Positions 118 to 33,098 of a stretch of DNA of 33,724 nucleotides are shown here, in pieces. The stretch's first letter is position 1, and each line of letters opens with the position of its first letter. The notes below the pieces were generated by a model. It did no database searches, was not told where the DNA came from, and saw only the letters and a program-made list of their open reading frames with translations. The position numbers and the translations under genes are program-made. Source of the DNA: Octopus sinensis (taxonomy: Eukaryota). Where the stretch lies: contig NW_021831971.1 in assembly GCF_006345805.1 (NCBI RefSeq), positions 1 to 33,724 on the forward strand, given 5' to 3'.

Positions 118-123
<6 letters not shown>

Positions 124-215
124 TATTAGAGACAAAACCACTATTTTTGCAAAACAAACAGGAAAGACTTAATCAATACATAAAATTTTAATAAATAGTC
201 AAAAAAAAAAAACCG

Positions 216-258
216 CCACTACAATCGTTTCTTGTCTTGATCGACAATCTTCAGGTGG
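216..258 (-). ncRNA. Minimal type I hammerhead ribozyme
   Basis: Minus strand: ccac-CTGAAGA-ttgtc(gatcaa)gacaa-GAAAC-gatt-GTA-gtgg. Helix I ccac/gtgg, helix II 5 bp, GUA cleavage triplet. Confidence 0.85.
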
Positions 259-303
259 ACTTCCATAATTCAGTGTATAATTTGACACTGAATTATTGGA
301 AGT

Positions 304-346
304 CCACCTGAAGATTGTCGATCAAGACAAGAAACGATTATAGTGC
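304..346 (+). ncRNA. Mutated mirror copy of the hammerhead
   Basis: ccac-CTGAAGA-ttgtc..gacaa-GAAAC-gatt-ATA-gtgc; GTA>ATA and helix I shortened. Confidence 0.65.
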
Positions 347-528
347 GGTTTTTTTGACTATTTATTAAAATTTTATGTACTGATTAAGTCTTTCCTTGTT
401 TGTTTTGCAAAATAGTGGTTTTGTCTCTAATAATATTTATCTAATATTTTACTATATATCGATTTAATCCTAAATCTGATTTTTTCCCTGTAAATTTGGA
501 TTTATTCCCTAATATTTATTATAGATTA

Positions 529-560
529 TATATATATATATGTATTTATTATATATATAT

Positions 561-591
<31 letters not shown>

Positions 592-705
592 AAATTACAT
601 ATATATATATATATATATACATATATATATAATATAATATATATATATATATGTATTTATATATATATATATATATATTATATAATATATGTATTTATAT
701 ATATA

Positions 706-737
<32 letters not shown>

Positions 738-738
738 G

Positions 739-792
<54 letters not shown>

Positions 793-1139: not shown

Positions 1140-2095
1140 ATAAAAAATCCACAGCGGAGCTCGAAGCAATCCAACGAAGCTACATTAAGAAAATCGTCTC
1201 AATGTAACGTATCATAGGCGCAGGAGTGGCTGCGTGGTAAGTAGCTTGCTAACCAACCACATGGTTCCGGGTTCAGTCCCACTGCGTGGCATCTTGGGCA
1301 AGTGTCTTTCTGCTATAGCCTCGGGCGACCAATGCCTTGTGAGTGGATTTGGTTGACGGAAACTGAAAGAAGCCTGTCGTATATATGTATATATATATAT
1401 ATGTATGTGTGTGTGTTTGTGTGTCTGTGTTTGTTCCCCTAGCATTGCTTGACAACCGATGCTGGTGTGTTTACGTCCCCGTCACCCAGCGGTTCGGCAA
1501 AAAGAGACCGATAGAATAAGTACTGGGCTTACAAAAAGAATAAGTCCCGGGGTCGAGTTACTCGACTAAAGGCGGTGCTCCAGCATGGCCGCAGTCAAAT
1601 GACTGAAACAAGTAAAAGAGTAAAGAGAGTATCAGCTACTGGAAAAGAGTGAAAGAATTAAAACTCTTCTCCCTAGAACGAAAGCGGGAAAGATATGCAG
1701 TGATATACATCTGGAAAATCCTTGAAGGTCTTGTACCAAACTTTGGCATTGAAAGGTACTCAAAGATTCCAGCATCACCATCAAAATACAGGACCAGATA
1801 CTGCAACAGCTTTTAGTTTTAGGAATCACAGCTCTTTAATATCCTTCCAAAATGCCTGAGAGACCTGCGTGGTTTGGATGTCTTTAAAACAAAGCTAGAT
1901 CTTTTCCTGTCAATGGTTCCAGACGAGCCTACCCCACGGCAGGAAACACAGATGAGGGCAGAGGCATCAAACTTCCTCATTGACCAAATGCCACCTATCA
2001 GAGGAGGTTCCAAATAATGGTGTAGCTCAGTCATGGGTGGTGCTCCAACATGACCGCAGCTTTGAAGCTGAAACATTTTTAAAGAATTTAAAGAA
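1140..2095 (+). mobile_element. 5'-truncated CR1/L2-type LINE 3' end, interrupted by a SINE
   Basis: Translates ELEAIQRSYIKKIVSM*RI|SYWKRVKELKLFSLER across the SINE. Similar to the C-terminus at 11870-12040 (EIERLQRRFASKI...NYWERLKALRLYSLE). Confidence 0.8.
1217..1628 (+). mobile_element. Full-length tRNA-derived SINE family A (CORE-like)
   Basis: A-box-like tggctgcgtgg, B-box-like ggttcagtccc, CORE-like cttgggcaagt. TSD gtatca at 1209-1214 and 1629-1634. Other copies at 27705 and 33225. Confidence 0.9.
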
Positions 2096-2260: not shown

Positions 2261-2453
2261 GGGAGAGTATCACGAAAAAAACAAAAGACGAAGACAGGTG
2301 GTGTAAAAACAAAATAAACAGATGTATTAGATACGCTCAGGAATAGAAAAAGTATTTTATGTTTCGAGCCTACGCTCTTCTACAGAAAGGGACACAGAAA
2401 AAAACAAGGAGAGAAAAAATGTGATAGTGGCTAACGACCTATCATGGCGACTG
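2261..2453 (-). mobile_element. Short element in (TA)n with a degenerate HHR-like motif (2353-2391); probable PLE terminal fragment
   Basis: Minus strand: cttt-CTGTAGA-a-gagc(gtag)gctc-GAAAC-ATA-aaat. Flanked by TA tracts on both sides. Confidence 0.55.
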
Positions 2454-2630
2454 ATAATATATTATATATATATATAATATATATATATATATAATATATA
2501 TATATATATATAACAAATGTGAGGATAAAATTCTTTTCGAAAAAAAATATCGGCATATTTGCATTAGAATTTTTTTCCTTGCCCTCATTTATGAATTATA
2601 TATATATATATATATAATATATATAATATA

Positions 2631-2904: not shown

Positions 2905-5034
2905 ATAATACATACACACGTCGCAGCTGCACCCTCCTACAACGAGAAAAGCCTTTGCCAAGAAGCTTCCTGTACTGATTCATTATTGTTGTCATGTGAT
3001 GCCCTCATGTGTCTTTTAAGCCCGGCCAAGCTTTTACACATTTCATTACATACTTAGACAACTGTGCTGGCTGGCAGGAGAAACAGGTGTCACCATATTC
3101 ACTCTCTTAACATGTCTTTTTAGACCTCCAACTAAGAAGCATACTTTTCCACAGGCTCCCCCCTTCTAAGCACCCCCCCCATAATTCTCTCATTCTTCAC
3201 TCTCTCTCTCTCTCAAACCTTGAACAACCATCATGCACAATCTTCCTCCATCCACCACGGTCTTGTGCCTCCCTCTCCCAATTACCAACTGCAATTCCTG
3301 TCTTTATTAGAGCATTTTTAACGCAATCCGTAAACCTTAGTTTAGGCTTATGTGCCGGTCTCCAGCCATCTTCCAGCTCACCATACAATAGCTGCTTGGG
3401 CAGTCGCTCATCACTCATCCTAACCAAATGTACCCACCCCCACCTCAAACGTCTTTGCAAAATCATTGACTCTATACTTCCACTGCCACTCCTCTCAAGC
3501 ACCTCCACATTACTAATGGCCATTTTCCAGTTATCTCCCAAATTTTTCTTAGATAGTATTGATGAAATCGTTCCAATTGCTTTCCCTGCTTTCGGTAAGT
3601 AACCCATGCCCCACTTCCATATAACAAAGATGGGAGGACGCATGTATCATATACCTTAACTTTAATTTGTGAAGATATATTATGTTGTTTCCACAGACGC
3701 CTATCAAACCTACCAAAAGCACTACTAGCCCTGCTGATTCCGTATGAAATTTCATCATCAAGTCCAGCAGTGCTCAAGGTACTTCCTAAATAAATAAATT
3801 TAGGTACAGTCTCCAACCTTTGACCATTCACAGTTATAAAAAGGTTCCACATACCTCTTGGAGGGAGCGGGCTGGTACATTATAACAGGTTTTTTTTTAG
3901 ATTGATCGTTGGACCCAATGCTGCACATGCTGCAGAAACCGCATTCACCATGCGCTGCATATCTTTCTGAGAATGTGCCAACAGGTCACAATCATCTGCA
4001 TAGAGAAACTCAACAAGGTGAGAATGCAGAACTTTCATTTTGTCACAGTCTTTTGAGATTGAATAGTTTTCCTGTTGTCCTATAGCTTATATAGACCCCT
4101 TCAGGGCAATCTTTAAAAAGCTATTTGAAAGACTATTGCAAAATATATAGCAAAGAGTGTAGGAGCAGGAATATCACCTTGCTTTACACCATTTTCTACA
4201 AAAATTGGATCTGATAAGGTACCTTAAACATTAACTCTCACTTCCAACTTGTCATGAAATTGTCTTAGCATTCTCACAAAATTTTCAAGGCATCCTAGCT
4301 TTTTCAGGATTTCCCAAAATGCAATTCTATTGATAGAATCAAACGCCTTTGTTAGGTCAATGAAAACCTGGTATAAGTCCATATCCTATTCGATGCACTT
4401 CTCTTGCAACTGCCTAGCCGAAAATGTCATATCCATATTACTCCTACCATCCCAAAACCCACATTGCAATTCTGGTAGAACCTCAGCAGCAATCTATCCA
4501 GTAGGCCTATTGAGCAACTCATCAAAATGTTCTCCCAAAAATATCTTTAGGATTTGTTAATAATTCTATGCCATCTTTGCTCTGAAGCAACACAACCGTT
4601 AATGAAGCTGGTCCATAAACTTTTTTTCAAGAGAGAGTAAAACAGTTTGGAATTGTTAAGCATTTGGATTTCATCGATATCTATCACTCCACCAATTTTC
4701 CTGCATCATCCGTCGCTTCCTCTGCACTGTTGCTTTTACTGCCTTGAAACATGTAGCCACTGTCCTATTCGTTGATATGTCAACATTTTGCAACATGTTA
4801 AATGCCTTTCGCTTTTCCTCTAAGATAAGACCAATTTCTTCATCATCATCGTCAAACCAATCTTGGTGTTTTTTGTTTTTACAACAGATCCAAGAATGTT
4901 ACTACAGATTTCGTACACTCTTTCTTTGAATGACTTCCAGCTTCCATCACAGGACAAATTATTTATTTCACTCACAGACTCACTGCGTACTGACGGAATC
5001 TTAAGTTTATTGACATCAAAAGGTAATTTGTCAT
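2905..5034 (-). mobile_element. RTE-clade LINE 3' portion (RT domain and C-terminus), decayed
   Basis: FIDLTKAFDSI, LYADDCDL, FIYLGSTLS, RASSAFGR, RMSDERLPKQLLYGEL..RPAHKPKLRFTDCVK, terminal KSLAGLKRHMRASH. Frameshifts and stops present. Confidence 0.92.
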
Positions 5035-5141
5035 TTTAAATTGTATATATTGTATGTCAATCTTATTTTTAATTTTACACAGTTTTATCTCAATTTTTAA
5101 TTTGTATTTATTTCTCTTATTTTAATTTTTTGTATAATAAA

Positions 5142-5634
5142 CTAGCAGTATCGCCCGGCGTTGCTCGGGTTTGTAAGGGAAATAACTATATAAGCATTTT
5201 TAGAGAGTTATAACCAAAAAATAGCAAAAAAATGCATTAAAAATGGAAAAAAAATTATGGTAAATTTTTTTTTAAATCGTTGACTCATCGTAGACATTTT
5301 TAGAGAGTTACTTCCCTTATATAATAGCGAAAAAATGCATTAGAATGGAAAAAATGATGGTAATTTTTTTTTAAATCGTTGACTCATCGTAGACATTTTT
5401 AGAGAGTTACTTCCCTTATATAATAGCGAAAAAATGCATTAGAATGGAAAAAATGATGGTAATTTTTTTTTTAAATCGTAGACTCATCGTAGACGCGCGC
5501 TAATACCCAGAAGGGCTCGATATGAATCACAACTATAAGATATTTGGTTAAACTGCACCGCAAAATGTGGGAGTAGTTAGGAATCTAAATCGTAGGAGAC
5601 AGACAGCTCACAACCTCTCTTTTATATATAAAGA
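5142..5634 (-). mobile_element. Non-autonomous Helitron
   Basis: Minus strand begins a|TCtttatatataaaag and ends with hairpin cccgagcaacgccggg followed by gCTAG|t (A/T insertion site). Three ~100-bp internal tandem units at 5195-5493. Confidence 0.85.
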
Positions 5635-5635
5635 T

Positions 5636-6985
5636 AGATGAGGGGTGGACAGAGTTCCTCTATTTACCCAAGTCATTGCGAAGGAATCTGTCTTGGAGAA
5701 AGTTACTCTGGATTTAAATACTCTACTGCTGTCTTGTAGTTAGCCTTTGGCTTTTCAAAGACTGGGAGAAGGACACTCGGATATAAAACCCGCGACTGTA
5801 AATGCACTCAATGATGTCGACTTGGTCTTCTTTTTGGATCATGCTTTGTAGTTTAGAGAGTGGGAATGGTTGCTGTGCAAAACTCTTCCTCACTTTAAAA
5901 AGTGTCAAGCAAGGAATAAGAAATGGACATCTTGTATGTAAATGACTGGCCGAAGCTTAAAAAGGCACATGTAAACAATGAGAGTTCATACTGATAATGA
6001 AGCAAATGGCAAAAAGGACTCTGGAACATTTTGTTCTGTGGTCTGGTCCGGCAGGTGTCCCAGGACACCACAGCGTGGATCCGGTCGTCATCCTACAACT
6101 GTGAGTAAATTTAAGTTAAGATGCAAGCCTATGAATATAGGATGTTGGAATGTTCGAACGTTATGAGACAATGATTGTCTGAAATCTCGTCCGGAGAGAA
6201 GATCCGCGCTTGTTTCAAAAGAGTTACAGCGATATGATGTGGAAGTTGTAGCGTTATCCGAAACAAGAATTCATGGAAAGGAGAATTTCGTAGAGAAATC
6301 TGCTGGGTATCATTTATTTTGGAACAGTAGAGTGGAGACCTATAAGAGAGAATCAGGAGTGGGATTTGCTATCAAAACCACTCTGGCTTAAAAACTTGAG
6401 GAACTAACGTGTGGTCAATCGGACTGTTTAATGTTTTTAAGAATTCCATTAAGAAAAGGTCGTTGTGCAACACTCATAAGTGCATATGCTCCAACTATGA
6501 ATTCATCAGAGGATGATAGACTTGCCTTCTATCTATCACTTACAGAGATTATGCGCAATATCCCCCATGATGACTAAGTTGTCATTTTGGTTGATTTTAA
6601 TGCGTGTGTTGGTACAGATTTGAGTTGGGGTGTCCTAGGAAAGCACGGGGTTGAGACTTGCAACAGTAATGGTTTGCAACCATTACAAACGTGCGTAGAA
6701 ATGGATTTGTGTGCCATGAATACAATGTTTCGACTAAAGAATAAGTATAAAACGACATGGATGCACCCAGGTTCTAAGAAATGGCATCTTATAGATTACA
6801 TCCTCACCAGGAAACGAGATACTAGGGACTTTGCTATTGTACGAGTAATGCGTGGGGCAGAGTGCTGGACTGATCACAGGCTTTTTCGTGCCAAGGTGAA
6901 TTTTGTTGCCAAGCCTAAGGTTAGAGCAAATAATGACAAGTTACCTAAACGGATTGATGTCAATAAAGTTAAGATTCCGTCAGTA
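5636..6985 (+). mobile_element. RTE-clade LINE 5' portion (5'UTR and apurinic endonuclease), decayed
   Basis: IGCWNVRTL, VVALSETR, ESGVGFAIK, LISAYAPT, DFNA.VG, TWMHPGSKKWHLIDYILTR, CWTDHRL. The 5' boundary is approximate. Confidence 0.92.
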
Positions 6986-6989
6986 CATA

Positions 6990-7012
6990 CTATATATATA
7001 TATAATATATAT

Positions 7013-7604: not shown

Positions 7605-7642
7605 AATCTGATGATTACTACGGACGTATGAAAGCGCTAATT
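7605..7642 (+). ncRNA. Minimal type I hammerhead ribozyme candidate
   Basis: aat-CTGATGA-ttactacggacgtat-GAAA-gcgc-TA-att. Helix III is the palindrome AGCGCT; helices I and II are weak (3 bp). Lies ~90 bp upstream of a (TA)n tract. Confidence 0.6.
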
Positions 7643-7750
7643 GAACTTTATGAACATTGCAAAATATTTTTTTAATGTTAACATACTATAATAAAAAAGT
7701 GAAAACCTGACCGTGTTTTTACTTTATCCTATCATATATATATATATATA

Positions 7751-8626
7751 AGTCAGTAAATGGTGGGGTTGTGTTAACCGCACGTGGAAAAATGATAGGA
7801 GAGGAAAAATTATAAGGCAGAATGCTAAATTGAAAGTAAATTTTAATAAAAACGGATGTATGGAAAATTAAAAAAGAAAAAATAATAAATCAAAGCGGTT
7901 TTCATTGTAAGGCAAATTTTCAAGATTTGGAAGAGGAAAAGAATTTTTTTTTTTAAATTGAGGAAGGGGAGAAAAGAAATTTACAATGTTTTTTCAAAAA
8001 AATAATAATACATATATACAAAAATTAATAAATAAGTATACCAATCCATTGTAGAGTCTTTATGCTTTTAGAGTTCAATAATAGTCCTTCGAAAAATTTC
8101 TTTGGAGGATTAGGATGCATGTGCTTAAATGTAGTATTTAGTTTAAAGGGTTGGGTGAATGTGTGTCAAAACAGGAAATGGGGTGGGAGTTATCCAGATC
8201 CTGTGAGTAAGGGGAGACAATTCTGTGGATTTTATACTCTTTAATTGGAATGATGGATTTTTTTGTCAAACAGGATGCTTATAAATTTTGAATATATATG
8301 TATATTAAAAATTTGGAATATTTTCCAAGGACTATTATTGAACTCTAAAATCATAAAGACACTACAATGTATTGGTATGCTTATTTATTAATTTTTGTAT
8401 ATGTGTATTGTTATTTTTTTGAAAAAACGAAAAAAACATTGTAAATTTCTTTTCTCCCCTTCCTCAATTTAAAAACAAAAATTTCTTTTCCTCTTCCAAA
8501 TCTTGAAAATTTGCCTTACAATGAAAACCGCTTTGATTTATTATTTTTTCTTTTTTAATTTTCCATACACCCATTTTTATTAAAATTTACTTTCAATTTA
8601 GCATTCTGCCTTATAATTTTTCCTCT

Positions 8627-8631
<5 letters not shown>
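7751..8631 (-). mobile_element. Fold-back element in (TA)n with ~300-bp inverted arms, probably Penelope-like
   Basis: 7795-8095 is an imperfect reverse complement of 8321-8631, with a 225-bp spacer and an unpaired tail at 7751-7794. HHR-like motif in each arm (7887-7928 minus, 8498-8539 plus). Confidence 0.7.
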
Positions 8632-11740: not shown

Positions 11741-12660
11741 CTCATAGGATGGACCCTACGAACCTTCACGACAAGGGGACCGGTAGTTATGCTAACTCTA
11801 TGGAAAACCTTAGTTCTCAGCAGATTAGGTTACTGCTCACAGCTTTGGTCTCCAAATTCACCCGGTCTCATAGCAGAAATTGAAAGGTTACAAAGAAGAT
11901 TCGCCAGTAAAATAACTTCGGTTAATGGTCTTAATTACTGGGAACGCCTGAAAGCTTTGCGTCTCTACTCTCTTGAACACCGAAGAGAGAAATAGACTGT
12001 TATATCGGTATGGAAGATCCTGGAGGGGCAAGTTCCAAACATCGGCATTAAAGCGCATTTTAATGCTCGAACTGGTAGGTACTGCCAGCTTCCAGAGATA
12101 CCATCTTCAAATTCACGAGCAAAAACGCTCTACTGTACCAGTTTAATATTCAGAGATCCTCATGTATTCAACTGCTTACCCAAAGGAATTAGAAATATAA
12201 AGGGACCTCTACTGAAACTTCCCCCCCCCCAAAAAAAACAAACGAAAAAACTGATGCCGGAAAAACTGGGTTCTGCCCGTTACTGCCCCCTACACATCAC
12301 TTAAGGACCACTTCGTTGCAGGAGATTGAATTTAGTATAATATATACGCTATATTTGATGGTATAAAGTATTCACCGACGTATCAGACGCGCCCCAATTT
12401 CAGCGAATTTTCTCGAAAATGTTCAGTGCATCAAAGCATGTAATGTAAGTTTCACTTTGCATATAAGGCTTCCGGTCATTTTGTTTTATTTTGTTTTGTT
12501 TTGAAATACTTATTTAGGAAAAAATGCGAATTGATATAAAAATGTTATATAGACTTTACCAACAGTCCATGGGAAGTAACTCTAGAAAATAAATGCTATT
12601 ACCTGCGAGTTATTTCTCCTGAATACTTTATCAGATTAAAACGTGATTAAAATATATACC

Positions 12661-12835
12661 GTTGTGTCTGGGGAGAGTCATTTTCTTTTTGTGCCTTATA
12701 ATTTAACACACTCACCGGTAAAATTTCCACTTTTTTTCTTATTTTTATTGTCCTAAAATTTTCGTTGCGTCTTGCAACCTTTTCAATAGTTTTGAGTTAA
12801 GGCACAAAAAGAAACTGACTCTCCCCAGACACAAC
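12661..12835 (-). mobile_element. Small fold-back element (38-bp inverted ends) containing a U3-A8 hammerhead-like motif
   Basis: 12661-12698 pairs with 12798-12835. Minus strand 12753-12789: cta-TTGAAAA-g-gttgc(aagac)gcaac-GAA-AATT-T-tag. Confidence 0.65.
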
Positions 12836-13154
12836 AGAATATGCTTCAATACACGAACTCATATAAAGAATCTTGCAAACCAAATCCAAAAACAAAATGT
12901 ATACCGTTTCTTTTGCAAAGAGTATGGTGTAGATGCTGAGACAAACATGCCCCACTGAGTCTCAGTCGTGGATTATAATCCATGTAAATGCTTCTAAAGG
13001 TCATGCTGTACACATGGCGTCTTGGTTTGACTTGTAAAAACCTCTCTATTTCCCCGCAATTTGACTCAATCCCGGTCACAGTGAAGGCCCTCAACGTTTT
13101 TATAGAGTGAACGGAGACCGGCTGAGACGAACTCGAATAATGACAAGGTATTCT

Positions 13155-16739: not shown

Positions 16740-16796
<57 letters not shown>

Positions 16797-16826
16797 GCGA
16801 GAAAGAAGCAACAAGAATGGATAGGT

Positions 16827-16917
16827 TTTTAGTACAATCGTTTCATACAAGGACAGGCTTTATTAAAAGTTGTAAAAATTACAGCATATAAACGTGTCCC
16901 GTACTCATCAGCTAAAA
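16827..16917 (-). ncRNA. Type I hammerhead ribozyme with extended helix II (mirror copy)
   Basis: Reverse complement of 19974-20064. Confidence 0.88.
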
Positions 16918-19900
16918 TACATGTGAGTTCTCTAGACATCCTAGTGGTTGAGGCTATACTCATGAAGTAATGTAGATAATTAAGTAACATAAACAGATTT
17001 CCAAAATTCATTAAAATTCTTTAAAGATGATGTACAGTCTTATCACAGAATTTTAAAAAGGTTCTAATAGCATCACAGAGAAGTGACCTAATCCATAGAG
17101 CACATATGAATTTCCAGAGATATGATGAGGGATTACATACTCACAGAAGACAAATTTATCCATTGTTAATCACAACGAGGTGGGTCTCAATTCCTGCTTA
17201 TTAGCATTACAGAGAGGGTGAATTAATCCTTGTATAGATGCACAATTTCCAATGGTGTAGATGTAAGTTTCCAGAGAAATGAAGAGGAATTTCATATTCA
17301 CAGGCGATAAGTTTATCAATGGTTGAACACAATGAGGTAGGTATCAGTTCTTGTTATATGATTAGGTATTTGCCACATTAATCACATTACTGCTATTTAC
17401 AAGAGGCTGTAGCTATTTAACTTATAAAGGCTGAAGGGCCTTCTGGAGAGGCCAAGAATAGAAAGGGAAGGGAATAGAAGAAAAGAGAGGAAATAAGGGA
17501 GGAGGGAGCAAAAAAAAGGGGGGAGGAAGGGGACTAAAAGAGAAGAGAGAAAAGGAAAAAGAGAATAAGAAGAAGAAACAGAAAAAAGAGAAGAGAGAAA
17601 GAATAGGGAAAGAAGGGAAAAAAATAAAAATAAAAAAGAGGGTTCTAGTTATCCAGAAGAATTAGTAGACGGCAAGTCTGGTTTTAATTTACAGGCATCT
17701 AGGAACTAGAGGAGAATATTATTCTTTGGCCAGTAAAACAGTTAATTTATTGCTGTTGAAATCAGCTATGAATTTAAAGAGAATCTAAAGAGATAACACA
17801 GTCAGGGGTTTAGGGGTCAGATGCTAAAATCAAAAGAAAATACATTATGAAAATCTAAGTATAATCTTATCAAAAAGTCAATAAAACTTACTTATTTAAT
17901 TTATTCATTTTATTGTCTTAAGGAGTTGCCATTATTATTCATACATTGACGGACTACAGGTCAAATCTTAGAAGATCATTTATAAGGTGTTAGGGGATTG
18001 TCTATCATAATGAAGATAATCATATTATCACCGAGGGGGTAGCCTTATTTATTTAATTTTGAAATAGAATTATGGGGCTATAGTATCTCATTTTATTTTA
18101 TTAGAGTTATGCTACTTAAATTAGATTAAGTTAGGAATTAAAATTAAGTTAGGAATTAAAATTAAAAATTACAATTAAGATTTAAAATTAAGAATTTAAA
18201 AGATTATGAGTTTGAAATTAGATAAAGCCTAAATTAAGCAGCGTATAAGTACTATTCATTTCCCTGTTCTCAAAAAACTGATGCAGATATAAGGAAAAAG
18301 ATAACTGTGGTGTGAGAACTCTTAGTTATCTACTTAAAGCAGTGCTATACTAGTAGAAGTCAAGTTATATCTATCTATCTAGTTACGGATGTTCTAATCA
18401 TTTAAAATATTTTAAAGTCTTCAATTTAGCGTGGACACAAACTTGACCTAGTTCGATATGATTATTCAATAAGTTGAATATTTTAAATGATTAGAACATC
18501 CGTAACTAGATAGATAGATATAACTTGACTTCTACTAGTATAGCACTGCTTTAAGTAGATAACTAAGAGTTCTCACACCACAGTTATCTTTTTCCTTATA
18601 TCTGCATCAGTTTTTTGAGAACAGGGAAATGAATAGTACTTATACGCTGCTTAATTTAGGCTTTATCTAATTTCAAACTCATAATCTTTTAAATTCTTAA
18701 TTTTAAATCTTAATTGTAATTTTTAATTTTAATTCCTAACTTAATTTTAATTCCTAACTTAATCTAATTTAAGTAGCATAACTCTAATAAAATAAAATGA
18801 GATACTATAGCCCCATAATTCTATTTCAAAATTAAATAAATAAGGCTACCCCCTCGGTGATAATATGATTATCTTCATTATGATAGACAATCCCCTAACA
18901 CCTTATAAATGATCTTCTAAGATTTGACCTGTAGTCCGTCAATGTATGAATAATAATGGCAACTCCTTAAGACAATAAAATGAATAAATTAAATAAGTAA
19001 GTTTTATTGACTTTTTGATAAGATTATACTTAGATTTTCATAATGTATTTTCTTTTGATTTTAGCATCTGACCCCTAAACCCCTGACTGTGTTATCTCTT
19101 TAGATTCTCTTTAAATTCATAGCTGATTTCAACAGCAATAAATTAACTGTTTTACTGGCCAAAGAATAATATTCTCCTCTAGTTCCTAGATGCCTGTAAA
19201 TTAAAACCAGACTTGCCGTCTACTAATTCTTCTGGATAACTAGAACCCTCTTTTTTATTTTTATTTTTTTCCCTTCTTTCCCTATTTCTTTCTCTCTTCT
19301 CTTTTTTCTGTTTCTTCTTCTTATTCTCTTTTTCCTTTTCTCTCTTCTCTTTTAGTCCCCTTCCTCCCCCCTTTTTTTTGCTCCCTCCTCCCTTATTTCC
19401 TCTCTTTTCTTCTATTCCCTTCCCTTTCTATTCTTGGCCTCTCCAGAAGGCCCTTCAGCCTTTATAAGTTAAATAGCTACAGCCTCTTGTAAATAGCAGT
19501 AATGTGATTAATGTGGCAAATACCTAATCATATAACAAGAACTGATACCTACCTCATTGTGTTCAACCATTGATAAACTTATCGCCTGTGAATATGAAAT
19601 TCCTCTTCATTTCTCTGGAAACTTACATCTACACCATTGGAAATTGTGCATCTATACAAAGGATTAATTCACCCTCTCTGTAATGCTAATAAGCAGGAAT
19701 TGAGACCCACCTCGTTGTGATTAACAATGGATAAATTTGTCTTCTGTGAGTATGTAATCCCTCATCATATCTCTGGAAATTCATATGTGCTCTATGGATT
19801 AGGTCACCTTCTCTGTGATGCTATTAGAACCTTTTTAAAATTCTGTGATAAGACTGTACATCATCTTTAAAGAATTTTAATGAATTTTGGAAATCTGTTT

Positions 19901-19973
19901 ATGTTACTTAATTATCTACATTACTTCATGAGTATAGCCTCAACCACTAGGATGTCTAGAGAACTCACATGTA

Positions 19974-20064
19974 TTTTAGCTGATGAGTACGGGACACGTT
20001 TATATGCTGTAATTTTTACAACTTTTAATAAAGCCTGTCCTTGTATGAAACGATTGTACTAAAA
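19974..20064 (+). ncRNA. Type I hammerhead ribozyme with extended helix II
   Basis: ttttag-CTGATGA-gtacgggaca...tgtccttgtat-GAAAC-gatt-GTA-ctaaaa. Perfect 6-bp helix I, intact core, predicted cut after 20058. Confidence 0.88.
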
Positions 20065-20207
20065 ACCTATCCATTCTTGTTGCTTCTTCTCGCTTATAAT
20101 CACCCCACATTACTGTATTGTTAAAACAGTATAGTTTGTTTTTGGTGCATCTAAGTTAGGTACCATATTCAAGTAAATTCATTTAAATTAACTTGAATCT
20201 TTATTGC

Positions 20208-20246
<39 letters not shown>

Positions 20247-20763: not shown

Positions 20764-20770
20764 TATATAT

Positions 20771-21745
20771 AAAGAAGTAAATATATGGCACAACGAAGTA
20801 CCGATATTTACTGGAAATAGCGAACGTAATAATACGACGCTAATGTATAGCTTCACCGCGTATGTACTAGCAAAAATGCGTGAGTGCAACAAACTAGAAA
20901 AAATTGTCTTACCTCCAGGGAGAACATCTGAAAGATGAAATACCTAGAAAAGGATAATGTGGGACCGGAGCCGGTTTCAGATTTTTCAAGATATGTCTGC
21001 ACCCATAAAATTAATCTATCTTCATCAGCCAAACATATACCACGACAACATTTCAGATGTTACCACATTAATGCCAATACACTCGACTGAAACGCCGAAA
21101 CGCTAACAGCACGAGAACGGTGAAGAAGTTTCAATAAATTAGTAATGCAATACTAGAGTATTGGTTTCCAGTAAAGAATAGCCCGTGAGGGAAAAATATA
21201 CAAAGAAGTAAATATATGGCACAACGAAGTACCGATATTTACTGGAAATAACGAACGATATGTAAATGTAAAAAAATACAAACTGGGACAAGAACGTGAA
21301 ACATTTAGAAGACGATACAAAAAACACGGACGGGACATTCGAAGCCTTCAATCTTCAGTCAAGAACCGGATCATCTTCGCAATTTCGGCTGATTAATCTT
21401 GAGATTGCTCCGATCTGGCCAGCCCCAAAGGAAAATCTAAGCCAAGCGCATTAGATTCCTTGGAAGAAAGCCTCGTATGTATACAAAACAAGGACGGAAA
21501 AACGGACGATGTTACGCGAATAAGAATACAAAAAATACGTAAAAACAATAATGATAGCACGAATAAGAATACAAAAATACATAAAAACAATAATGATAAT
21601 AATAATAACAACAAAAACAGGACGTCACAGACAAGTGTCTTTTCGACAGGACGAGTAAATTTTTGAGCTGGCGTTAGAAGAAAGCCTTAGGGCTACAGAG
21701 AGACAAAAAAGTGTGTCTTGCCGCAACGGCTGCTGGCCACGAAGA
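20771..21745 (-). mobile_element. Non-coding repeat ending at (TA)n; 56-bp direct repeats (period 431) enclose a hammerhead
   Basis: 20771-20826 and 21202-21257 differ at one base. The upstream boundary is approximate. Confidence 0.55.
20957..21036 (-). ncRNA. Type I hammerhead ribozyme with full helix III
   Basis: atgtttgg-CTGATGA-agat...atct-GAA-accg(gctc)cggt-C-ccacat; canonical GUC triplet. Confidence 0.82.
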
Positions 21746-24340: not shown

Positions 24341-25198
24341 GAATCTAAATCAGAACCATTCAAAATATTATTACATCATATTGGCATTTGTTATTTGTTT
24401 TGTTTCAACCGACGTCTGAAGTGGGAATCCACGGTTGATAGGACAGGAAAATTTGCAGAAGATTGTCTGCTGGTTTCGTATTTCTGTTTCGTGTCCTTAA
24501 AGAACTGCTGAAAAGAATGACTCCATGGACGCTGCCTGGAATGGATTTATTGCCGAAAGCAAAACGGACAGCTTTTATGTATTCGTCCACTCTGCTGCCT
24601 CTTTAATGCTGAGATTGGCAACAGAGAGATGTCATCAGAAATAAAATTTACTTTTTATTGTTAGTCTATCATAATCGACATCGTTCTTCTCCCCAGCTCA
24701 GTCGACTAAAGACGACAAAACTATAGCTGTATAATCGTATGGAGTGTATCCTGAAGAATAATCAGTCGTAGAGAACTGTTGATTAATGAGTAAAGATTGG
24801 CAAGGCAATATACTGTGATTTATTGATAAGGAAACGGATCTTTTCATTTTGAAGGCCAGATTTTCCTAGTTAACTAAACAATTTGAAACTTCGTATACTG
24901 GTAGAATGTGTCAAAAGAAAACATAATTGTAAACCAAAATGAAAACGGAATTGTAATTTCTAAGTTTAACGTTGTTTAATAATTCGAATTTTAACCAATG
25001 GTATTCTTTCTTTCGACTTCATATCATTTACTGCCTCTCAAAATATTGTTACTGTGACGTTAACATGCAACATGGCTGTACGGTAATATTCTAGCGCCAT
25101 ATTTTAAAGAATATATTGAAGAACCTTGTAAGCTTCCTTCAGTGGCAAATGTTTCCTCAAATTTACAAGTAAATGTTTTCCAATATTTCTGGAATGCA

Positions 25199-25578: not shown

Positions 25579-26009
25579 GTTGTTGGCATCCTTCTTGTCT
25601 CGGGAGACAATGGAGTTGCGCATAAAATAGTCTAGTTCGGCTTTTACATTTCATGTCCTGATACATTTCCTGCTGTGGATGTGTAGTCCTATCCTGGACA
25701 AACACTCCCTCTGGCAGGTACCGCAAATGTAGCGAAGACTGTTCCTGGCTGGTTGTAATGCCATAGTTTCTTGTTGACGTCTTTTCTTGTCTTTCCATTT
25801 CTCCCCTCTCTCTCTGTCACTCCTTTGTGTTCCCTCTTTTACGGTACGTCGCCATTCTCCGCGGTTGCCGGCAACTGCCTCTCAACCGCTAATATTGATG
25901 TTGCAGGCCTTCATGTCTCTTTTGCAAACATCCTTTTATCGTAAGAACGGTCTACCCACAGACCTAGTACCCCTAGCAAGCTCTCCGTAGAGTATGTCCT
26001 TGGGGATTT
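25579..26009 (-). mobile_element. RTE LINE 3' end
   Basis: IPKDILYGELARGTRSVGRP..KDVCKRDMKAC..CGTCQRECLSRIGLHIHSRKC*; 3'UTR ccattgtctcccgagac...ccaacaac. Confidence 0.9.
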
Positions 26010-26411
26010 CAAGAGTAAACACTATGGAAAACACAATGATGTTTATGAAGTTATTTTCACAATTTTGATGAGAACGAATGTCCAGCGATAACCGGGGCGG
26101 TTCGTTGAGATAAAGGAAATGCTTGGCCTGTGAATTCGGCTTCAGTCACATGCTTGAATTGTTCTCAGAGACAATTGAAGAACCAGAAACCAAGTCATTC
26201 AGTATAATGTCTGTATTTTAAGTAATGATTCGACTGGAAAGTAAAAGTTGAGAGAAGAACAAAGGAGAGTTTGAGAGAGAAGGAAGATGATTGTTTGTGT
26301 GCAAGAAGTTTAACCCGTTGCCCCCGTGTGTGTCTAAGAGATGGAAGACCAAAGTCTCTTAAATAAAAACTAAAAGAGGGAGGGAGAGGGAGAGGGAGAG
26401 AGAGAGAAGAG

Positions 26412-26484
<73 letters not shown>

Positions 26485-26530
26485 AAGTTATCAGTGATAT
26501 TAAGTGGTAGATATAACTTCATTAAAAGAC

Positions 26531-26760
26531 GGCGAGCTGGCAGAATCGTTAAGCACGCCGGGAAATGCTTAGCGATATTTCGTCTGCCGCTACGTTCTGA
26601 GTTCAAATTCCACCGAGGTCGGCTTTGCCTTTCATCCTTTTTGGGGTCGACTAAATAAGTACCAGATACGCACTGGGGGTCGATATAATCGACTTAATTA
26701 TCCGGTTGTCTGTCCTTGTTTGTCCTCTCTGTTTAGCCCCTTGTGGGTAGTAGAGAAATA
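26531..26760 (+). mobile_element. SINE family B (paralogue of 15335-15562)
   Basis: Sequence match. Confidence 0.9.
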
Positions 26761-26910
26761 GGTAAGTTCATTGACAATACTTTTCTTAACAAATTGTTGA
26801 AACTTAGTCCAAGAAAAGGAATAACATGTACAGAACTCCGTGATGAAGACAAAATCTATTACTTTGCAGATAAAGAGAATTATTACTATAAGAAAAGAAA
26901 AGAAAAAAAG

Positions 26911-27316
26911 GGCGGCGAGCTGGCAGAAACGTTAGCGCGCCGGGCTGAATGCTTAGCGGTATTTCGTCTGTCTGAGTTCAAATTCCGGCGAGGTCGACTT
27001 TGCCTTTCATCCTTTCGGGGTCGATAAATAAAGTACCAGTTTCGCACTGGGGTCGATGTAATCGACTTAATCTGTTTGTCTGTCCTTGTTTGTCCTCTCT
27101 GTGTTTAGCCCCTTGTGGGTAGTAAAGAAATAGGTATTTCGTCTGCCGTTACGTTCTGAGTTCAAATTCCGCCGAGGTCGACTTTGCCTTTCATCCTTTC
27201 AGGGTCGATAAATAAAGTACCAGTTTCGCACTGGGGTCGATGTAATCGACTTAATCCGTTTGTCTGTCCTTGTTTGTCCCCTCTATGTTTAGCCCCTTGT
27301 GGGCAATTAAGAAATA
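26911..27316 (+). mobile_element. SINE family B, partial tandem dimer
   Basis: Second unit restarts at the internal ggtatttcgtc site, as at ~10536. Confidence 0.9.
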
Positions 27317-27590
27317 TATATATGGATGGATGGATAAATGGATGGATGTGTGCTTACGTTTAAACGTATGTACTTATATGTAATTATAGATGTATACAGG
27401 CTCATAAGGTGATTATGAATGAAGAGGCAAACGTTGCTAAACAATAACAACAACAACAAACAACCATTGACATCTTGTAGATATCCGGTTCATACACTCT
27501 TAAATTCGTTGTAGTAAGAAGTCCTCACAGGACAATCCTCTGTTCTCAAATATCCTCTCAATTGGTTCCACTTCCTACAACGAAAAACAG

Positions 27591-28101
27591 GATGTCATCG
27601 GATTAACTAATCGCTCGCCTTCCGTCTTGTCATTGTTGTCATGTCATCCGAATACAAAGAAACCCCCCAAACACCCTCACACACGCATGCATGATTATGT
27701 CTATACTTTTTACTCTTTTACTTGTTTCAGTCATTTGACTGGCGGCCATGCTGGATCACCGCCTTTAATCGAGTAACTCGACCCGGGACTTATTCTTTGT
27801 AAGCCCAGGACTTATTCTATCGGTCTCTTTGCCGAACCGCTAAGTGACAGGGACGTAAACACACCAGCCTCGGTTGTCAAGCAATGCTAGGGGGACAAAC
27901 ACAGACACAAACACACACACACACACACACATAATATTATACATATATACCAGGCTTCTTTCAGTTTCCGTCTACCAAATCCACTCACAAGGCTTGGTCG
28001 GCCCGGGGCTATAGCAGAAGACACTTGCCCAAGATGCCACGCAGTGGGACTGAACCCGGAACCATGTGGTTGGTTAGCAAGCTACTTACCACACAGCCAC
28101 T
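27591..28101 (-). repeat. Inverted duplicate of 33233-33724, including SINE A (27705-28101) clipped at its 5' end
   Basis: Match extends past the SINE into its flank, up to the window end. Confidence 0.88.
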
Positions 28102-31100
28102 GTGGATGTGTAGTCCTATCCTGGACAAACACTCCCTCTGGCAGGTACCGCAACAATAAAAAGTAAATTTTATTCTGATGACATCTCTCTGTTGCCAATC
28201 TCAGCATTAAAGAGGCAGCAGAGTGGACGAATACATAAAAGCTGTCCGTTTTTGCTTTCGGCAATAAATCCATTCCAGGCAGCGTCCATGGAGTCATTCT
28301 TTTTTCAGCAGTTCTTTAAAGGACACGAAACAGAAATACGAAACCAGCAGACAATCTTCTGCAAATTTTCCTGTCCTATCAACCGTGGATTCCCACTTCA
28401 GACGTCGGTTGAAACAAAACAATAACAAATGCCAATATGATGTAATAATATTTTGAATGGTTCTGATTTAGATTCAGGCAAATTTGAGGCGAGTGGATTC
28501 ACCGACGCCGTCGACAACACTGGCCGACCGATCCTTTATTTGGTCGACCTCTAAAGAATGAAAAACGAAATTGACTCCCGCGCTATTTGAACTTTGACCA
28601 GAAAGATTCGGAAGAAAGTGGCAGTGGTGCGCGCGCACACACACACACGTATGATTTATTTTTATGTATGTATGTAAGAATGGACATATGCTTGTGTGCA
28701 AGTGTGTATGTATGTACGTACGTATGTATTTATATATGTGCTTGTATGTATGTATGTATGTATGTATGTATGTATGTATGTATGTATGTATGTATGTATA
28801 CATGCATGTACTTACGTACTTACGTACGTATGTATGCATGTATGTACATACATACGCACGTACGTACGTACGTATGTATGTATGTATGTAGTGTAATGTA
28901 TGTATGTATGTATGTATGTATGTATGTACGTACGTATGTATGTATATATATATATATATATATATATTGCATACATGTACCTACGTTTCTGTATGCGTGC
29001 TACTCACCGTACACCCACGGTCCAAACAATTATTCTTTTATTCCTTTACTTGTTTTATTTATATTGTTACGGTTGGCTAGGTGCATTTCTGGTGACCCAC
29101 TTAGGAATTATGGCACCATCATGTCTGGTGAAAAATGTGACAGTCTTTTGTCTAATGGAGGACTGATGGGTTTTTGGAAGGACCTGTGACCTCGTGCGGT
29201 TGAGAAAGGGTCAGGAGAATGTGAGAGAAAAGGGACAGATTAGGGCTGAGAGCAAATAGAGATAGGGTATAAGCGGTAGGGGGACGGATGGAGAGGCTAA
29301 GAGACAGCAGGCGATATAGATAGAGTAAGGAATCAGATAGCAAATAGAAAGGCTAAGAGACAGCAGGCGATATAGATAGGGTATAAGGACCAGGGCAGTT
29401 AGAAAGGGTAAGAGCGATATAGACAGAGGGAGATGGGGAGTGGAAGAAGGACAGAGACGAAGTGAGGGTCTTGGCAGTCGTTGAGCGCGTTCGTCGAGGA
29501 ACACAACGGATCTTGGAGTTGGAGTCGGTCGTCTAAGAAGGACGTCGGATTTCTGGAAATCAGAGCGAGTAGGTGGAAACTTAGGAGCAAGCAAGTTGGA
29601 TGCAGGAGTTTGGCAGGCTGGATTTAGCAGTATTGAGAGATGAGTGCAGAATGGGACACTGGCGATTCAGTTAGGAATAAGGTATGTGATTGTGTATTGA
29701 TACGTGTCACGATGTAAAAGAAAAGAAGAGAAAAGAGAGAGAAAAGAAGGACTCTGTCGATGTAGTCGATAAAGAACATTGTGAATTGAGTAAAGGACTT
29801 GTTGAATTGTAACGTGAATTGTTGTGATACGAACATTGTATAATGTATCGAAGTGTTCTGATTGGACTGTGACGTATCGTGAACATTATTTGATCTGGAC
29901 TTGTTGTGTCGTTACTGAACACTGTTATATTGTTACATGCATGTTGTTAAATGCTTTGATCTGTGGTATACCGTATGATGTATTGATTTGTTGTTTGCCT
30001 TAAATGCTTTGATGTTGTAACAATTGTAATTGTCGTATAAACTGTTGTTTGAATATAAGCCCAGCGTTGCCAGTTGTTGCTTGCCTCTTTGGGTTGTGTC
30101 TCGGGTTGTGCTCTGTATCTCTGTGTTCTGAGGTTTGTGGTTGTTGTTGTATCTCTCCTCTCCTCTCTCCGCCTCTTTGGGTTCCGTGCGGAACTTGTGT
30201 GAGCCGTTCGGGACGGGCGACGACGGATTCCGTAACAATATAAAACTGAGAATGTGAGTCTGTCTGTCTGTGTGAAACCCTAAAACTTGAGAACCGATTT
30301 CATTCAAATTTTACAAATTCCTTACTTAGGGTCATGGAGTGTCATGGGCAAAGCTCTGGGCACCGTTGGGCTCACTGTCACAGCTAACCCGCCCCACAGT
30401 GAGCGCTACGGGGGATTGCTTCCACTATTACAGGGAGCTTAGCTTAGTGACGACCATGACTTTGAGACTGAGTCTCAACTCTTGGCTCACCACTTCCATC
30501 CTAAATGGATATCCCTCACCACTATCCACACCGCCCTTGCCAGGGCACGTTCCGTGGACCGTGCATCTGCTCTCTCCCCCAGAACCCGCCCTGCATTCAA
30601 GGTTGCCCTCAGTAGCTGCCCAACCTCCTCTGCTGAAAGTAGGTGGAATTATATAAGGGAAGCTTTGTATACCACATCAATGATAATTCGGCATGAGAGA
30701 AAGGCAAAAACCCAGATTTTGTTTCAGTGCTGGCTCTCAGAGCTGGAAACAGTTATCGAAGCAAAGTGTGCAGCTCTGATGCAATACAAGAGTGATTCTT
30801 CTACAAAGTCACTCGAAGACTCAGAAAGGCAAGAAATAAACCCAACTGACTGCCAGACGCTGTGGCAAATAGGTATTGGGCAGGAAATCTGTCAGAGTAT
30901 CAAGTCAGCTGCTGACAGTGGCGACACCTGTGGGATGTATGCCGTTTTGAAGAAGACCCTCGATTGCTAACCTCTTCTTCTCGTGGCCAGCAGCCGTTGC
31001 GGCAAGACCACTTTTTTTGTCTCTCTGTAGCCCTAAGGCTTTCTTCTAACGTCAGCTCAAAAATTTACTCGTCCTGTCGAAAAGACACTTGTCTGTGACG

Positions 31101-31687
31101 TCCTGTTTTTGTTGTTATTATTATTATCATTATTGTTTTTACGTAGTTTTTGTATTCTTATTCGTGCTATCATTATTGTTTTTACGTATTTTTTGTATTC
31201 TTATTCGCGTAACATCGTCCGTTTTCCGTCCTTGTTTTGTTACATACGAGGCTTTCTTCCCGGAATCTAATGCGCTTTGCTTAGATTTTCCTTTGGGGCT
31301 GGCCAGATCGGAGCAATCTCAAGATTAATCAGCCGAAATTGCGAAGATGATCCGGTTCTTGACTGAAGATTGAAGGCTTCGAATGTCCCCGTCCGTGTTT
31401 TTTGTATCGTCTTCTAAATGTTTCACGTTCTTGTCCCAGTTTGTATTTTTTAACATTTACATATCGTTCGTTTTCTTTCCATAAATATCGGTACTTTTTC
31501 GTTGTGCCATATATTTACTTCTCTTTGTATATTTTTCCCTCACGGGCTATTCTTACTGGAACCAATACTCTAGTATTGCAATTACTAATTATTGAAACTT
31601 CTCACCGTTCTCGTGCTGTTAGCGTTTCGGCGTTTCAGTCGAGTGTATTGGCATTAATTGGTAACATCTGAAATGTTGTCGTGGTAT

Positions 31688-31765
31688 ATTTTGGCTGATG
31701 AAGATAGATTAATTTTATGGGTGCAGACATATCTTGAAAAATCTGAAACCGGCTCGGTCCCACAT
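31688..31765 (+). ncRNA. Paralogous copy of the 20957-21036 hammerhead
   Basis: tgg-CTGATGA-agat...atct-GAA-accg(gct)cggt-C-cca. Confidence 0.78.
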
Positions 31766-31944
31766 TATCCTTTTCTAGTATTTCATCTTTCAGATTTCTC
31801 CCTGGAGTAAGACAATTTTTTCTAGTTTGTTGCACTCACGCATTTTTGCTAGTACATACGCGAATGAAGCTATACATTAGCGTCGTATTATTACGTTCGC
31901 TATTTCCAGTAAATATCGTACTTCGTTGTGCCATATATTTACTT

Positions 31945-32000
<56 letters not shown>

Positions 32001-32275
32001 TATAATTTATACAGATATAGGGTGAAAGATAATTAATTTAATAAAAAAAACAATTTCACCTAGATTTTTTCGGTAAAAACTTATACAAAAGTTTTTTTTA
32101 TTATATATAATTATAACAATAAGGTTTAGCAAGAAGTTGCTTGACCACATACCGAAAATCTTAGAAATAGCAGCCAAAAGACTACTATTTCCTTTTTCTC
32201 ACAAAATATGTCTCCACAGACAACAATATTTGTAAATTATTGTTATAATTATATATACATACATACATACATACA

Positions 32276-32344
<69 letters not shown>

Positions 32345-32440
32345 TATAATTAAGGGCTAAAGAAGGTTATTCTAAAGCCAATACACTGATTTATCCACTT
32401 ATAATCCGCATATATATATATATAATATATATATAATATA

Positions 32441-32487
<47 letters not shown>

Positions 32488-32913
32488 CCCGTCAAAGGAT
32501 TTTATATAGATTTCGAAGTATGCAAATTAATTCGTTTAAGGGGCAACAGACCACGAAAGAAGATATCAAAATTAGTGCGTAGTGTGTTAAAAAGCTTCGA
32601 AAGAAGGGAGATATGAGTTGTTTCCTTTTGATCAGCGGCGTCAATCCGTCAGCCATTGACAGAAATCGAAAACGGCTCTCGACTTTCTATGAAAAAGCGT
32701 TTTTCCACCAAGTATTTACATCCTATTATTAGAGCTCTGCTTCGTGATTCTCTCTCTCGCTCATTCTCTCTCTCTGTGTATATATATGTGCACACACACA
32801 CACACACCACCACACACACAACACACACACACCACACACACACACGCACATACAAACTCACACACACATAAATAGACAGACACACACATATGCATATATA
32901 TATATATACATAC

Positions 32914-33098
32914 AGAGGGAACCACTATGTGGACACCCATATGCCAGAAATAGATCTGTTACGATCTCACCACTAAGAAATGTTCTCAACAAAAATTTAG
33001 CAAAACAACCAAAACGTAATCGAGCAAGACAAAAAAAAAAAAAAGACCTTAGCAGATCTATTTCTAGCATAAGGGTGTCCACATAGTGGTTTCCCTCT
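32914..33098. repeat. Small fold-back element with ~54-bp imperfect inverted arms next to (TA)n
   Basis: 32914-32967 pairs with 33044-33098. Confidence 0.75.

What the first reader, a model, noticed from the sequence alone, without database searches (positions are those of the whole stretch)
118..33098. Diverse guild of (TA)n-targeting, hammerhead-bearing fold-back elements
Seen: at least 7 sequence-unrelated non-coding inserts (0.2, 2.4, 7.6, 7.9/8.5, 12.8, 16.8/20.0 and 21.0/31.7 kb) each contain a type I HHR or HHR-like motif pointing toward a nearby TA tract. Four have an inverted copy of their own 3' region; in the three larger ones this copy lacks the terminal tail. Established: Penelope-like retroelements carry minimal HHRs in their pseudo-LTRs, form inverted 5' duplications, and some target microsatellites. 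Inference: several distinct, possibly uncatalogued cephalopod PLE or retrozyme families, at roughly one ribozyme motif per 4-5 kb here.
Basis: partly seen in the sequence, partly recalled or inferred. Interest (0 to 1): 0.85.

Follow-up and report, generated by a model that had tools for sequence, protein, structure and literature searches.

The report
Penelope-like retroelement ends in octopus DNA
This stretch of probably octopus DNA holds the ends of seven unrelated insertions that carry small hammerhead-ribozyme motifs (six intact, none tested for cutting) beside TA repeats, most likely truncated Penelope-like retroelements, a known kind of jumping gene, plus one 431-base unit that may be a circular-RNA "retrozyme".

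Summary
The motifs are real. Six of seven inserts pass a type I / minimal hammerhead descriptor (7 hits in the non-redundant window against 0.03 in shuffles); the 2.4 kb one has a broken core. In five inserts the core lies 117-138 nt upstream of a (TA)n tract. Three inserts (0.2, 7.9/8.5, 16.8/20.0 kb) are inverted pairs with a one-sided tail. The 21.0/31.7 pair is not a fold-back but part of a larger inverted duplication, whose second copy is an empty site for the 3.4 kb insertion. Public contigs show that the 16.8/20.0 family is high-copy, rises in depth towards the ribozyme, and ends in TA both with and without its tail. All of this is published Penelope-like element (PLE) anatomy, and a (TA)n-targeting, hammerhead-bearing octopus PLE is already catalogued (Hydra-1_Obim). 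No RT or GIY-YIG ORF could be linked, so membership and clade are inferred. The most novel part is a 431-nt, strongly self-paired unit with a canonical GUC hammerhead and a 62-nt terminal repeat, a candidate cephalopod retrozyme. Verdict: new members of a known kind; modest interest.

The parts
118..285 (-). 0.2 kb insertion, tailless arm ending in (TA)n 4-117; hammerhead 216-258 (CUGAAGA, helix II 5 bp, loop III CGAUUG, triplet GUA, helix I 4 bp)
   Evidence: arms differ by 2 substitutions
286..526 (+). 0.2 kb insertion, opposite arm; hammerhead copy at 304-346 has lost the 15.2-16.2 pair; about 445-526 is a probable tail (boundary uncertain)
2261..2456 (-). 196-nt insert between two TA tracts; decayed minimal hammerhead 2355-2388 (core A6>U), predicted dead
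7605..7733 (+). 3' end of an insert; hammerhead 7605-7642 (CUGAUGA, U...U flanking helix II, palindromic GCGC, triplet CUA); ends at the TA tract 7734-7750; 5' boundary not defined
7751..8095 (-). 7.9 kb arm with 44-nt tail (7751-7794); U3-A8 hammerhead-like motif 7887-7928 (helix II only 3 bp)
8096..8320 (.). 225-nt spacer, presumably the 5' extension of one arm (which arm not determined)
8321..8630 (+). 8.5 kb tailless arm joined to (TA)15; motif copy 8498-8539; 3.3% substitutions against the other arm
12657..12855 (-). 12.8 kb insert; U3-A8 minimal hammerhead 12753-12789 without loop III (extra base after A9, G10.1-C11.1 pair, A-U at 15.2-16.2); 58-nt inverted copy of its 3' end at 12798-12855
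16796..18476 (-). tailless arm of the 3.4 kb insertion, 65 nt longer at its 5' end (18412-18476); hammerhead 16827-16917; its first 25 codons (18401-18475) are open and may be the end of an ORF
18477..20092 (+). second arm, 0 substitutions against the first over 1613 aligned nt; hammerhead 19974-20064 (helix I 6 bp, long helix II, loop III CGAUUG, triplet GUA)
20093..20211 (+). 119-nt tail present on this arm only, joined to (TA)n; summed contig depth halves at this boundary in two large runs
20765..21257 (-). 431-nt unit (20765-21195) plus 62-nt terminal direct repeat (21196-21257); canonical type I hammerhead 20960-21031 (GUC, helix III 3-4 bp); candidate retrozyme or non-autonomous PLE
28152..32900 (-). 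inverted segmental copy of 16317-24662 lacking the 3.4 kb insertion; holds the second copy of the 431-nt unit (hammerhead core 31695+)
32410..32487 (.). empty site: a plain TA tract between the same flanks that enclose the 16796-20211 insertion

Best explanation
These inserts are most likely the 5'-truncated 3' ends (pseudo-LTR regions) of several unrelated Penelope-like retroelement families, which carry minimal type I hammerhead motifs and were probably inserted at TA microsatellites by a PLE reverse transcriptase-endonuclease. SHOWN: the motifs, their orientation, the inverted pairs, the one-sided tails, an empty site, and for one family high copy number with both end types joined to TA. 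INFERRED, from the Anolis PLE studied in vitro: the GIY-YIG endonuclease nicks AT-rich DNA on both strands; reverse transcription starts inside the RNA at either of two sites a little over 100 nt past the ribozyme, giving ends with and without the tail; two truncated cDNAs primed from opposite strands join 5' to 5', giving the inverted pair. INFERRED: five motifs have a short, self-complementary helix III and would cut only as dimers or with protein help, to process tandem precursor RNA. In an inverted pair the second motif is antisense and would lock the first in a hairpin.
For: Motif excess over shuffles. Features not required by the descriptor recur: self-complementary loop III words (6/6, 6/6, 4/4, 2/2, 8/10, 4/6 pairs; 0/2 for the dead motif). 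The U...U bases flanking helix II at 7608 and 8503 are the pattern tabulated for Hydra-clade PLE hammerheads (PMC8557442 File S2). Core-to-TA distances are 117, 126, 126, 132 and 138 nt, and 129 nt to a (TA)3; in the Anolis PLE reverse transcription starts 111-118 nt past helix II (PMC11167929). Contigs on 18412-20211: 4756 and 2406 laid in two large runs; summed depth rises 30-fold and 12-fold from the 5' end to the ribozyme; it falls to 53% and 53% at the tail boundary (36% and 46% in two small runs); loose ends run into TA at 20088 (14 contigs in X1, 2 in X17) and at the tail end (1 contig in X1, 1 in X15). Empty site in the duplicated segment. The arms have 0 substitutions where the duplication's rate of 0.48% predicts 7.7, so the insertion is likely younger than the duplication.
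Against: No RT or GIY-YIG sequence is linked to any insert. Pfam finds nothing in six frames of 18412-20211, and the 25-codon candidate ORF end found no relative. A 1.7 kb non-coding 3' region is too long for Hydra-clade elements (<3 kb in all). The 119-nt tail is longer than the usual 30-40 bp. Only 1 of 7 families was tested against outside data. None of 10 window words matched the Craig et al. supplement. No cleavage was tested, and published minimal PLE hammerheads cut poorly in vitro. Summed contig depth is not a copy number. No displayed contig bridges the fold-back junction at 18476/18477.
Confidence: 0.85

Rival explanations
1. Some inserts, above all the 431-nt unit, are non-autonomous non-LTR retrozymes: self-cleaved monomers circularise and are copied by PLE enzymes as more-than-unit-length cDNA. 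The confidence given is for that unit; for the whole set it is about 0.1.
For: 431-nt unit with a 62-nt terminal direct repeat, a 1.14-mer. Canonical GUC hammerhead with a stable helix III. 38% GC. Folding z -6.2 (0 of 100 shuffles); 0 of 30 control stretches reached -4, lowest -3.96. Published animal retrozymes are about 170-400 nt, <45% GC and highly self-paired (PMC7229834).
Against: No dimer or array in the window. A partial tandem is also the normal PLE pseudo-LTR arrangement. The unit is slightly over the published size range. The hammerhead fold lies 10.6 kcal/mol above the predicted minimum. Copy number and expression of this unit were not tested.
Confidence: 0.35
2. The palindromes and the large inverted duplication are long-read or assembly artefacts built around genuine repeats.
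For: The 16.8/20.0 arms have 0 substitutions. The segmental copies differ by 66 small gaps in 3 kb, typical of unpolished or allelic sequence. No displayed contig crosses 18476/18477 collinearly. The 'opposite strands' joint 18412-18477, seen in all 4 runs, only shows that the spacer is the natural 5' continuation of the left arm.
Against: The arms differ in 5' truncation point and in the tail, and both end types occur in independent runs. The 7.9/8.5 and 0.2 kb arms have diverged by 3.3% and 1.3%. An artefact would not touch the motifs or their TA polarity. The segmental duplication itself may well be two haplotypes joined in error.
Confidence: 0.08
3. The motifs are chance matches of a relaxed pattern in AT-rich repeat DNA.
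For: Rfam has no hammerhead hit. The descriptor was adjusted after inspection. The 2.4 kb motif passes only at a laxity where shuffles give 2.2 hits, and the 7.6 and 7.9/8.5 motifs have 3-bp helices II.
Against: 4 hits against 0.02 under the strict descriptor, fixed distance to TA tracts, palindromic loop III.
Confidence: 0.02

Closest known systems
Hydra-clade PLEs, including Hydra-1_Obim of Octopus bimaculoides and Penelope-13_HM (Craig et al. 2021, PMC8557442)
   Same: (TA)n targets; hammerhead about 100-200 nt from the 3' end; U...U flanking helix II; Penelope-13_HM has a 5'-truncated inverted copy with the motif on both strands.
   Different: No motif here matches the Hydra-1_Obim hammerhead; the 16.8 kb family has a 1.7 kb non-coding 3' region; no ORF to place any family in a clade.
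Minimal hammerheads of metazoan PLEs (Cervera and de la Pena 2014, PMC4209133)
   Same: No or tiny helix III, palindromic 15.2-16.2 and loop 3, extra base after A9, G10.1-C11.1 pair, U3-A8 core variant, pairs of motifs 100-700 bp apart on opposite strands, many families and thousands of copies per genome.
   Different: No octopus entry in the one supplement file searched (the other file could not be searched); helix II of the 16.8 kb motif is unusually long.
Poseidon element PAc of Anolis carolinensis (Frangieh et al. 2024, PMC11167929)
   Same: AT-rich target, two internal start sites defining the tail, start 111-118 nt past helix II, both strands cut and extended.
   Different: In PAc the ORF starts at helix II; no such intact ORF start is seen here. 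One tail here is 119 nt.
Non-LTR retrozymes of animals (PMC7229834; bioRxiv 10.64898/2026.07.22.740005)
   Same: For the 431-nt unit: type I hammerhead, no ORF, low GC, strong self-pairing, terminal redundancy.
   Different: No tandem array here; circular RNA and cleavage not shown; slightly longer than published monomers.

Membership tests
EN+ Penelope-like elements | ORF with telomerase-like RT and GIY-YIG endonuclease | tested here: inconclusive
   Not in the six frames of 18412-20211 nor among 15 longer ORFs scanned, as expected of truncated copies. The 25-codon candidate end had no hit. No genome held.
EN+ Penelope-like elements | Type I or minimal hammerhead near the 3' end, in sense orientation | tested here: met
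   6 of 7 inserts intact, 1 decayed.
EN+ Penelope-like elements | Inverted 5'-truncated copy joined at the 5' end | tested here: met
   0.2, 7.9/8.5, 16.8/20.0 and (58 nt) 12.8 kb; absent at 2.4, 7.6 and 21.0 kb.
EN+ Penelope-like elements | Optional 3' tail, two classes of ends | tested here: met
   44 nt and 119 nt tails, one uncertain tail; depth step and loose ends in other runs for 16.8/20.0.
EN+ Penelope-like elements | Dispersed copies with 5' truncation | tested here: met
   Tested for 1 of 7 families: 12- and 30-fold depth gradient.
Hydra clade | (TA)n insertion preference | tested here: met
   6 of 7 inserts; empty site. Naiads share this preference, so it does not identify the clade.
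Hydra clade | RWK and DKT motifs, CxCX5C linker, no CCHH, length under 3 kb | not testable with these tools
   No ORF available; the 1.7 kb 3' region of the 16.8 kb family argues against that family being Hydra.
Hammerhead ribozyme | Self-cleavage at NUH | not testable with these tools
   Contigs cannot show RNA ends.
Non-LTR retrozyme (431-nt unit) | Short non-coding, self-paired unit with canonical type I hammerhead | tested here: met
Non-LTR retrozyme (431-nt unit) | Tandem dimers or arrays | tested here: inconclusive
Non-LTR retrozyme (431-nt unit) | Expressed as circular RNA | not tested

The most novel reading that the evidence does not exclude
The 431-nt unit at 20765-21257 is the first cephalopod non-LTR retrozyme: a rod-folding circular RNA with a monomer-competent GUC hammerhead, copied into TA tracts by the enzymes of a still-active, high-copy octopus PLE family whose newest insertion (16796-20211) is polymorphic.
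Probability: 0.3. Interest if true: 0.55.

Novelty: new member of a known kind. Interest (0 to 1): 0.3.

Why it matters
The architecture is known, so the value is in cataloguing and in test material. If this density is typical, octopus genomes hold a very large set of minimal hammerheads that Rfam does not see. One window gives a filled and an empty site of a very young family and two end classes, which suits tests of how PLEs form tails and inverted pairs. A 1.6 kb near-perfect palindrome would yield long double-stranded RNA if transcribed, relevant in animals known (recalled, not checked here) for heavy A-to-I editing. A cephalopod retrozyme was not found in my literature searches.

Tried and rejected
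Rfam scan: no hammerhead. No own genome held. Pfam on 18412-20211: only two sub-threshold DUF hits; on 15 ORFs: RVT_1 only in LINE fragments at 9796 and 10694. Candidate ORF end 18401-18475: none of 68 candidates scored; the single hit among 1.84 billion representatives is a tandem-repeat protein scoring by summed weak matches, rejected; no Atlas hit. Exact family words in GTDB and IMG/VR: 0 hits. Protein search with the LINE piece at 11996: nothing. Run search: no holder on record as RNA; two guessed-RNA runs cover 28 of 30 bins, not counted as expression. I first read the 18412-18477 opposite-strand joint as proof of the fold-back and rejected that: it is the natural continuation of the left arm. 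The 21.0/31.7 pair as a fold-back: rejected. The motif-like stretch at 21358(-) and the 32901-33110 inverted repeat pass no descriptor. An ORF start at helix II as in PAc: no long open frame after any of 8 cores. Earlier findings by place and by sequence: nothing. One search was badly posed (it matched on cephalopod words alone) and was replaced.
Full report
Setting. No genome is held for the window. It is repeat-rich animal DNA with TA tracts, SINE-like repeats and decayed LINE fragments. An RTE fragment at 6578-6964 has an Octopus bimaculoides protein as best hit (84% identity, E 5.8e-68; next 62%), so an octopus source is likely.

The motifs. Rfam lists no hammerhead among 125 matches at E<=5. 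My own descriptor finds intact-core type I or minimal hammerheads at 254(-), 7608(+), 7923(-)/8503(+), 12786(-), 16911(-)/19980(+) and 21028(-)/31695(+). On a non-redundant 27.3 kb version this is 7 hits in 6 families against 0.03 in 500-nt block shuffles (0 of 60); the stricter form gives 4 against 0.02. The descriptor was refined after inspection, but the first version already gave 8 against 0.2-0.4 (0 of 150). The 2.4 kb motif has A6>U and has lost the 15.2-16.2 pair; it passes only where shuffles give 2.2 hits. Two motifs use the U3-A8 core, which Cervera and de la Pena report in about 1,300 Schistosoma copies. Loop III words are self-complementary in the intact motifs, the mark of dimer-type hammerheads. 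The inserts share no sequence.

Geometry. Six of seven cores have (TA)5+ within 270 nt downstream (background 17%). For tailless ends the distance is 117-138 nt in five inserts, and 129 nt to a (TA)3 at 12.8 kb; the 21.0 kb unit differs at 258 nt. Three inserts are inverted pairs in which one arm runs straight into TA and the other has extra sequence first: 44 nt at 7751-7794, 119 nt at 20093-20211, and about 80 nt with an uncertain boundary at 0.2 kb. The 12.8 kb insert has a 58-nt inverted copy without the ribozyme.

The duplication. 16317-24662 recurs inverted at 28152-32900 with 0.2-0.7% substitutions and many small gaps. The 21.0/31.7 pair is simply part of it. The second copy lacks 16796-20211 and has a plain TA tract there. 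The two arms of the insertion differ by 0 substitutions in 1613 nt where 7.7 are expected at the duplication's rate (P 4e-4), so insertion after the two copies split is more likely than later deletion. Gene conversion or assembly polishing could also erase arm differences. The two segments may be alleles joined in error, in which case the insertion is polymorphic.

Outside data for one family. 20 of the 24 listed runs, in 7 studies and under 3 coded organism labels, hold part of 16796-21600. On 18412-20211, two large runs lay 4756 and 2406 contigs. Summed depth climbs from 44,504 to 1,333,473 and from 58,997 to 717,385 between the first bin and the ribozyme bin, and drops to 53% in both at the tail boundary. 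Loose ends go into TA at 20088 (14 contigs in X1, 2 in X17) and at the tail end (X1, X15); these tables are cut, with 227 loose ends and 7458 pieces not shown. This is a high-copy, 5'-truncated family with two end classes at TA tracts. The opposite-strand joint at 18412-18477 and loose ends at 18475 show that the 65-nt spacer is the natural upstream part of the left arm and that the family continues at least 255 nt further. They do not prove the fold-back junction, which no displayed piece bridges. The left arm begins with 25 open codons and a stop; read by eye, the 30 loose letters keep that frame open for 10 more codons and place a Glu 12 residues before an Asn, which recalls the conserved E and N at the end of PLE endonucleases (named; the spacing comparison is my recall). 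Searches found no relative, so this is a hint only.

Mechanism. The Anolis PLE protein cuts AT-rich DNA on both strands and starts reverse transcription inside the RNA at two sites that bound the tail, 111-118 nt past helix II; its hammerhead cuts only with protein and is not needed for insertion in vitro. Applied here by inference, this accounts for the TA targets, the fixed distance, the optional tail and, with priming from both strands, the inverted pairs. Cleavage of these motifs is untested.

The 431-nt unit. 20765-21195 is followed by a 62-nt repeat of its own end. It has a canonical GUC hammerhead with a 3-4 bp helix III, 38% GC, and folds at z -6.2, beyond all 30 control stretches. The hammerhead fold lies 10.6 kcal/mol above the minimum. 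This fits a non-LTR retrozyme monomer with terminal redundancy, but equally a short non-autonomous PLE in partial tandem; a 2026 preprint argues that the two are one lineage.

What is known. Craig et al. describe inverted 5'-truncated copies, one-sided 30-40 bp tails and (TA)n bias as standard for PLEs. Their supplement lists Hydra-1_Obim from O. bimaculoides with (TA)n targets and a tabulated hammerhead, three Octopus Naiads with (TA)n targets, and Penelope-13_HM with an inverted copy. An O. vulgaris annotation counts 31 recently active Penelope-like families; its main text does not mention hammerheads. Ten window words did not match the Craig supplement (long runs are cut there). Searches for 'retrozyme' + 'octopus' (3 papers) and 'hammerhead ribozyme' + 'octopus' (5 papers) showed no study of octopus retrozymes in the listings; most subscription papers are outside this library.

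What I read. PMC4209133: parts 1-2 of 4, passages of one of two supplements. PMC8557442: passages, section 11, supplement rows and part 2 of 59. PMC11167929: parts 1-2 of 4. bioRxiv 10.64898/2026.07.22.740005: parts 1 and 3 of 5, supplements closed. PMC13282606: part 1 of 3 and passages; its supplement was listed but not read, and its consensus library is off-site and could hold these families. PMC7229834: passages and section 14.

Verdict. Real and more than chance, best read as truncated ends of several PLE families. New members of a known kind, with one retrozyme candidate. Interest 0.3.

Noticed in passing
window 15186-16369, 25673-26909, 28100-28153: The inverted duplication is complex: further inverted (15186-16086 vs 25992-26909) and direct (16125-16314 vs 25723-25912; 25673-25726 vs 28100-28153) pieces suggest template switching or joined haplotypes.
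   Followed up: partly
window 7754-7769(-) and 20102-20115(+): The tails of two unrelated families share a 14-16 nt AC-rich word; the pattern was built from these two sites, so the shuffle result is not a test. The Anolis PLE starts reverse transcription in an AC-rich stem-loop.
   Followed up: partly
window 7795, 20093, 21190-21195: The tails, and the junction inside the 431-nt unit, begin with 3-6 TA-like bases, a possible microhomology for priming on (TA)n; chance is high in AT-rich sequence.
   Followed up: no
window 22479-23654: A 1.17 kb stretch bounded by TGTTACGG...CCGTAACA, like a solo LTR, interrupts an RTE fragment; also present in the duplicated copy.
   Followed up: no
window 21258-21610(-): A separate insert directly upstream of the 431-nt unit, with a decayed hammerhead-like stretch at 21358 that passes no descriptor.
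   Followed up: partly
window 32901-33110: 68-nt inverted repeat (85%) next to TA with no passing hammerhead; possibly an old, very short PLE inversion.
   Followed up: partly
window 19553-19800: Two diverged tandem copies of a roughly 130-nt stretch inside the 3' region of the 16.8/20.0 family, seen by eye.
   Followed up: no
window 7734-7750: One TA tract received two different elements (7.6 and 7.9 kb) from opposite sides, 3' ends facing.
   Followed up: no
window 1214-1627, 10294-10723, 13155-13388, 26523-27322, 27591-28101, 33222-33616: Two SINE-like repeat families in several copies; ARAGORN finds no intact tRNA. Decayed RTE (3100-6990, 21620-22380) and CR1/L2-like LINE pieces (9300-12300).
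   Followed up: no
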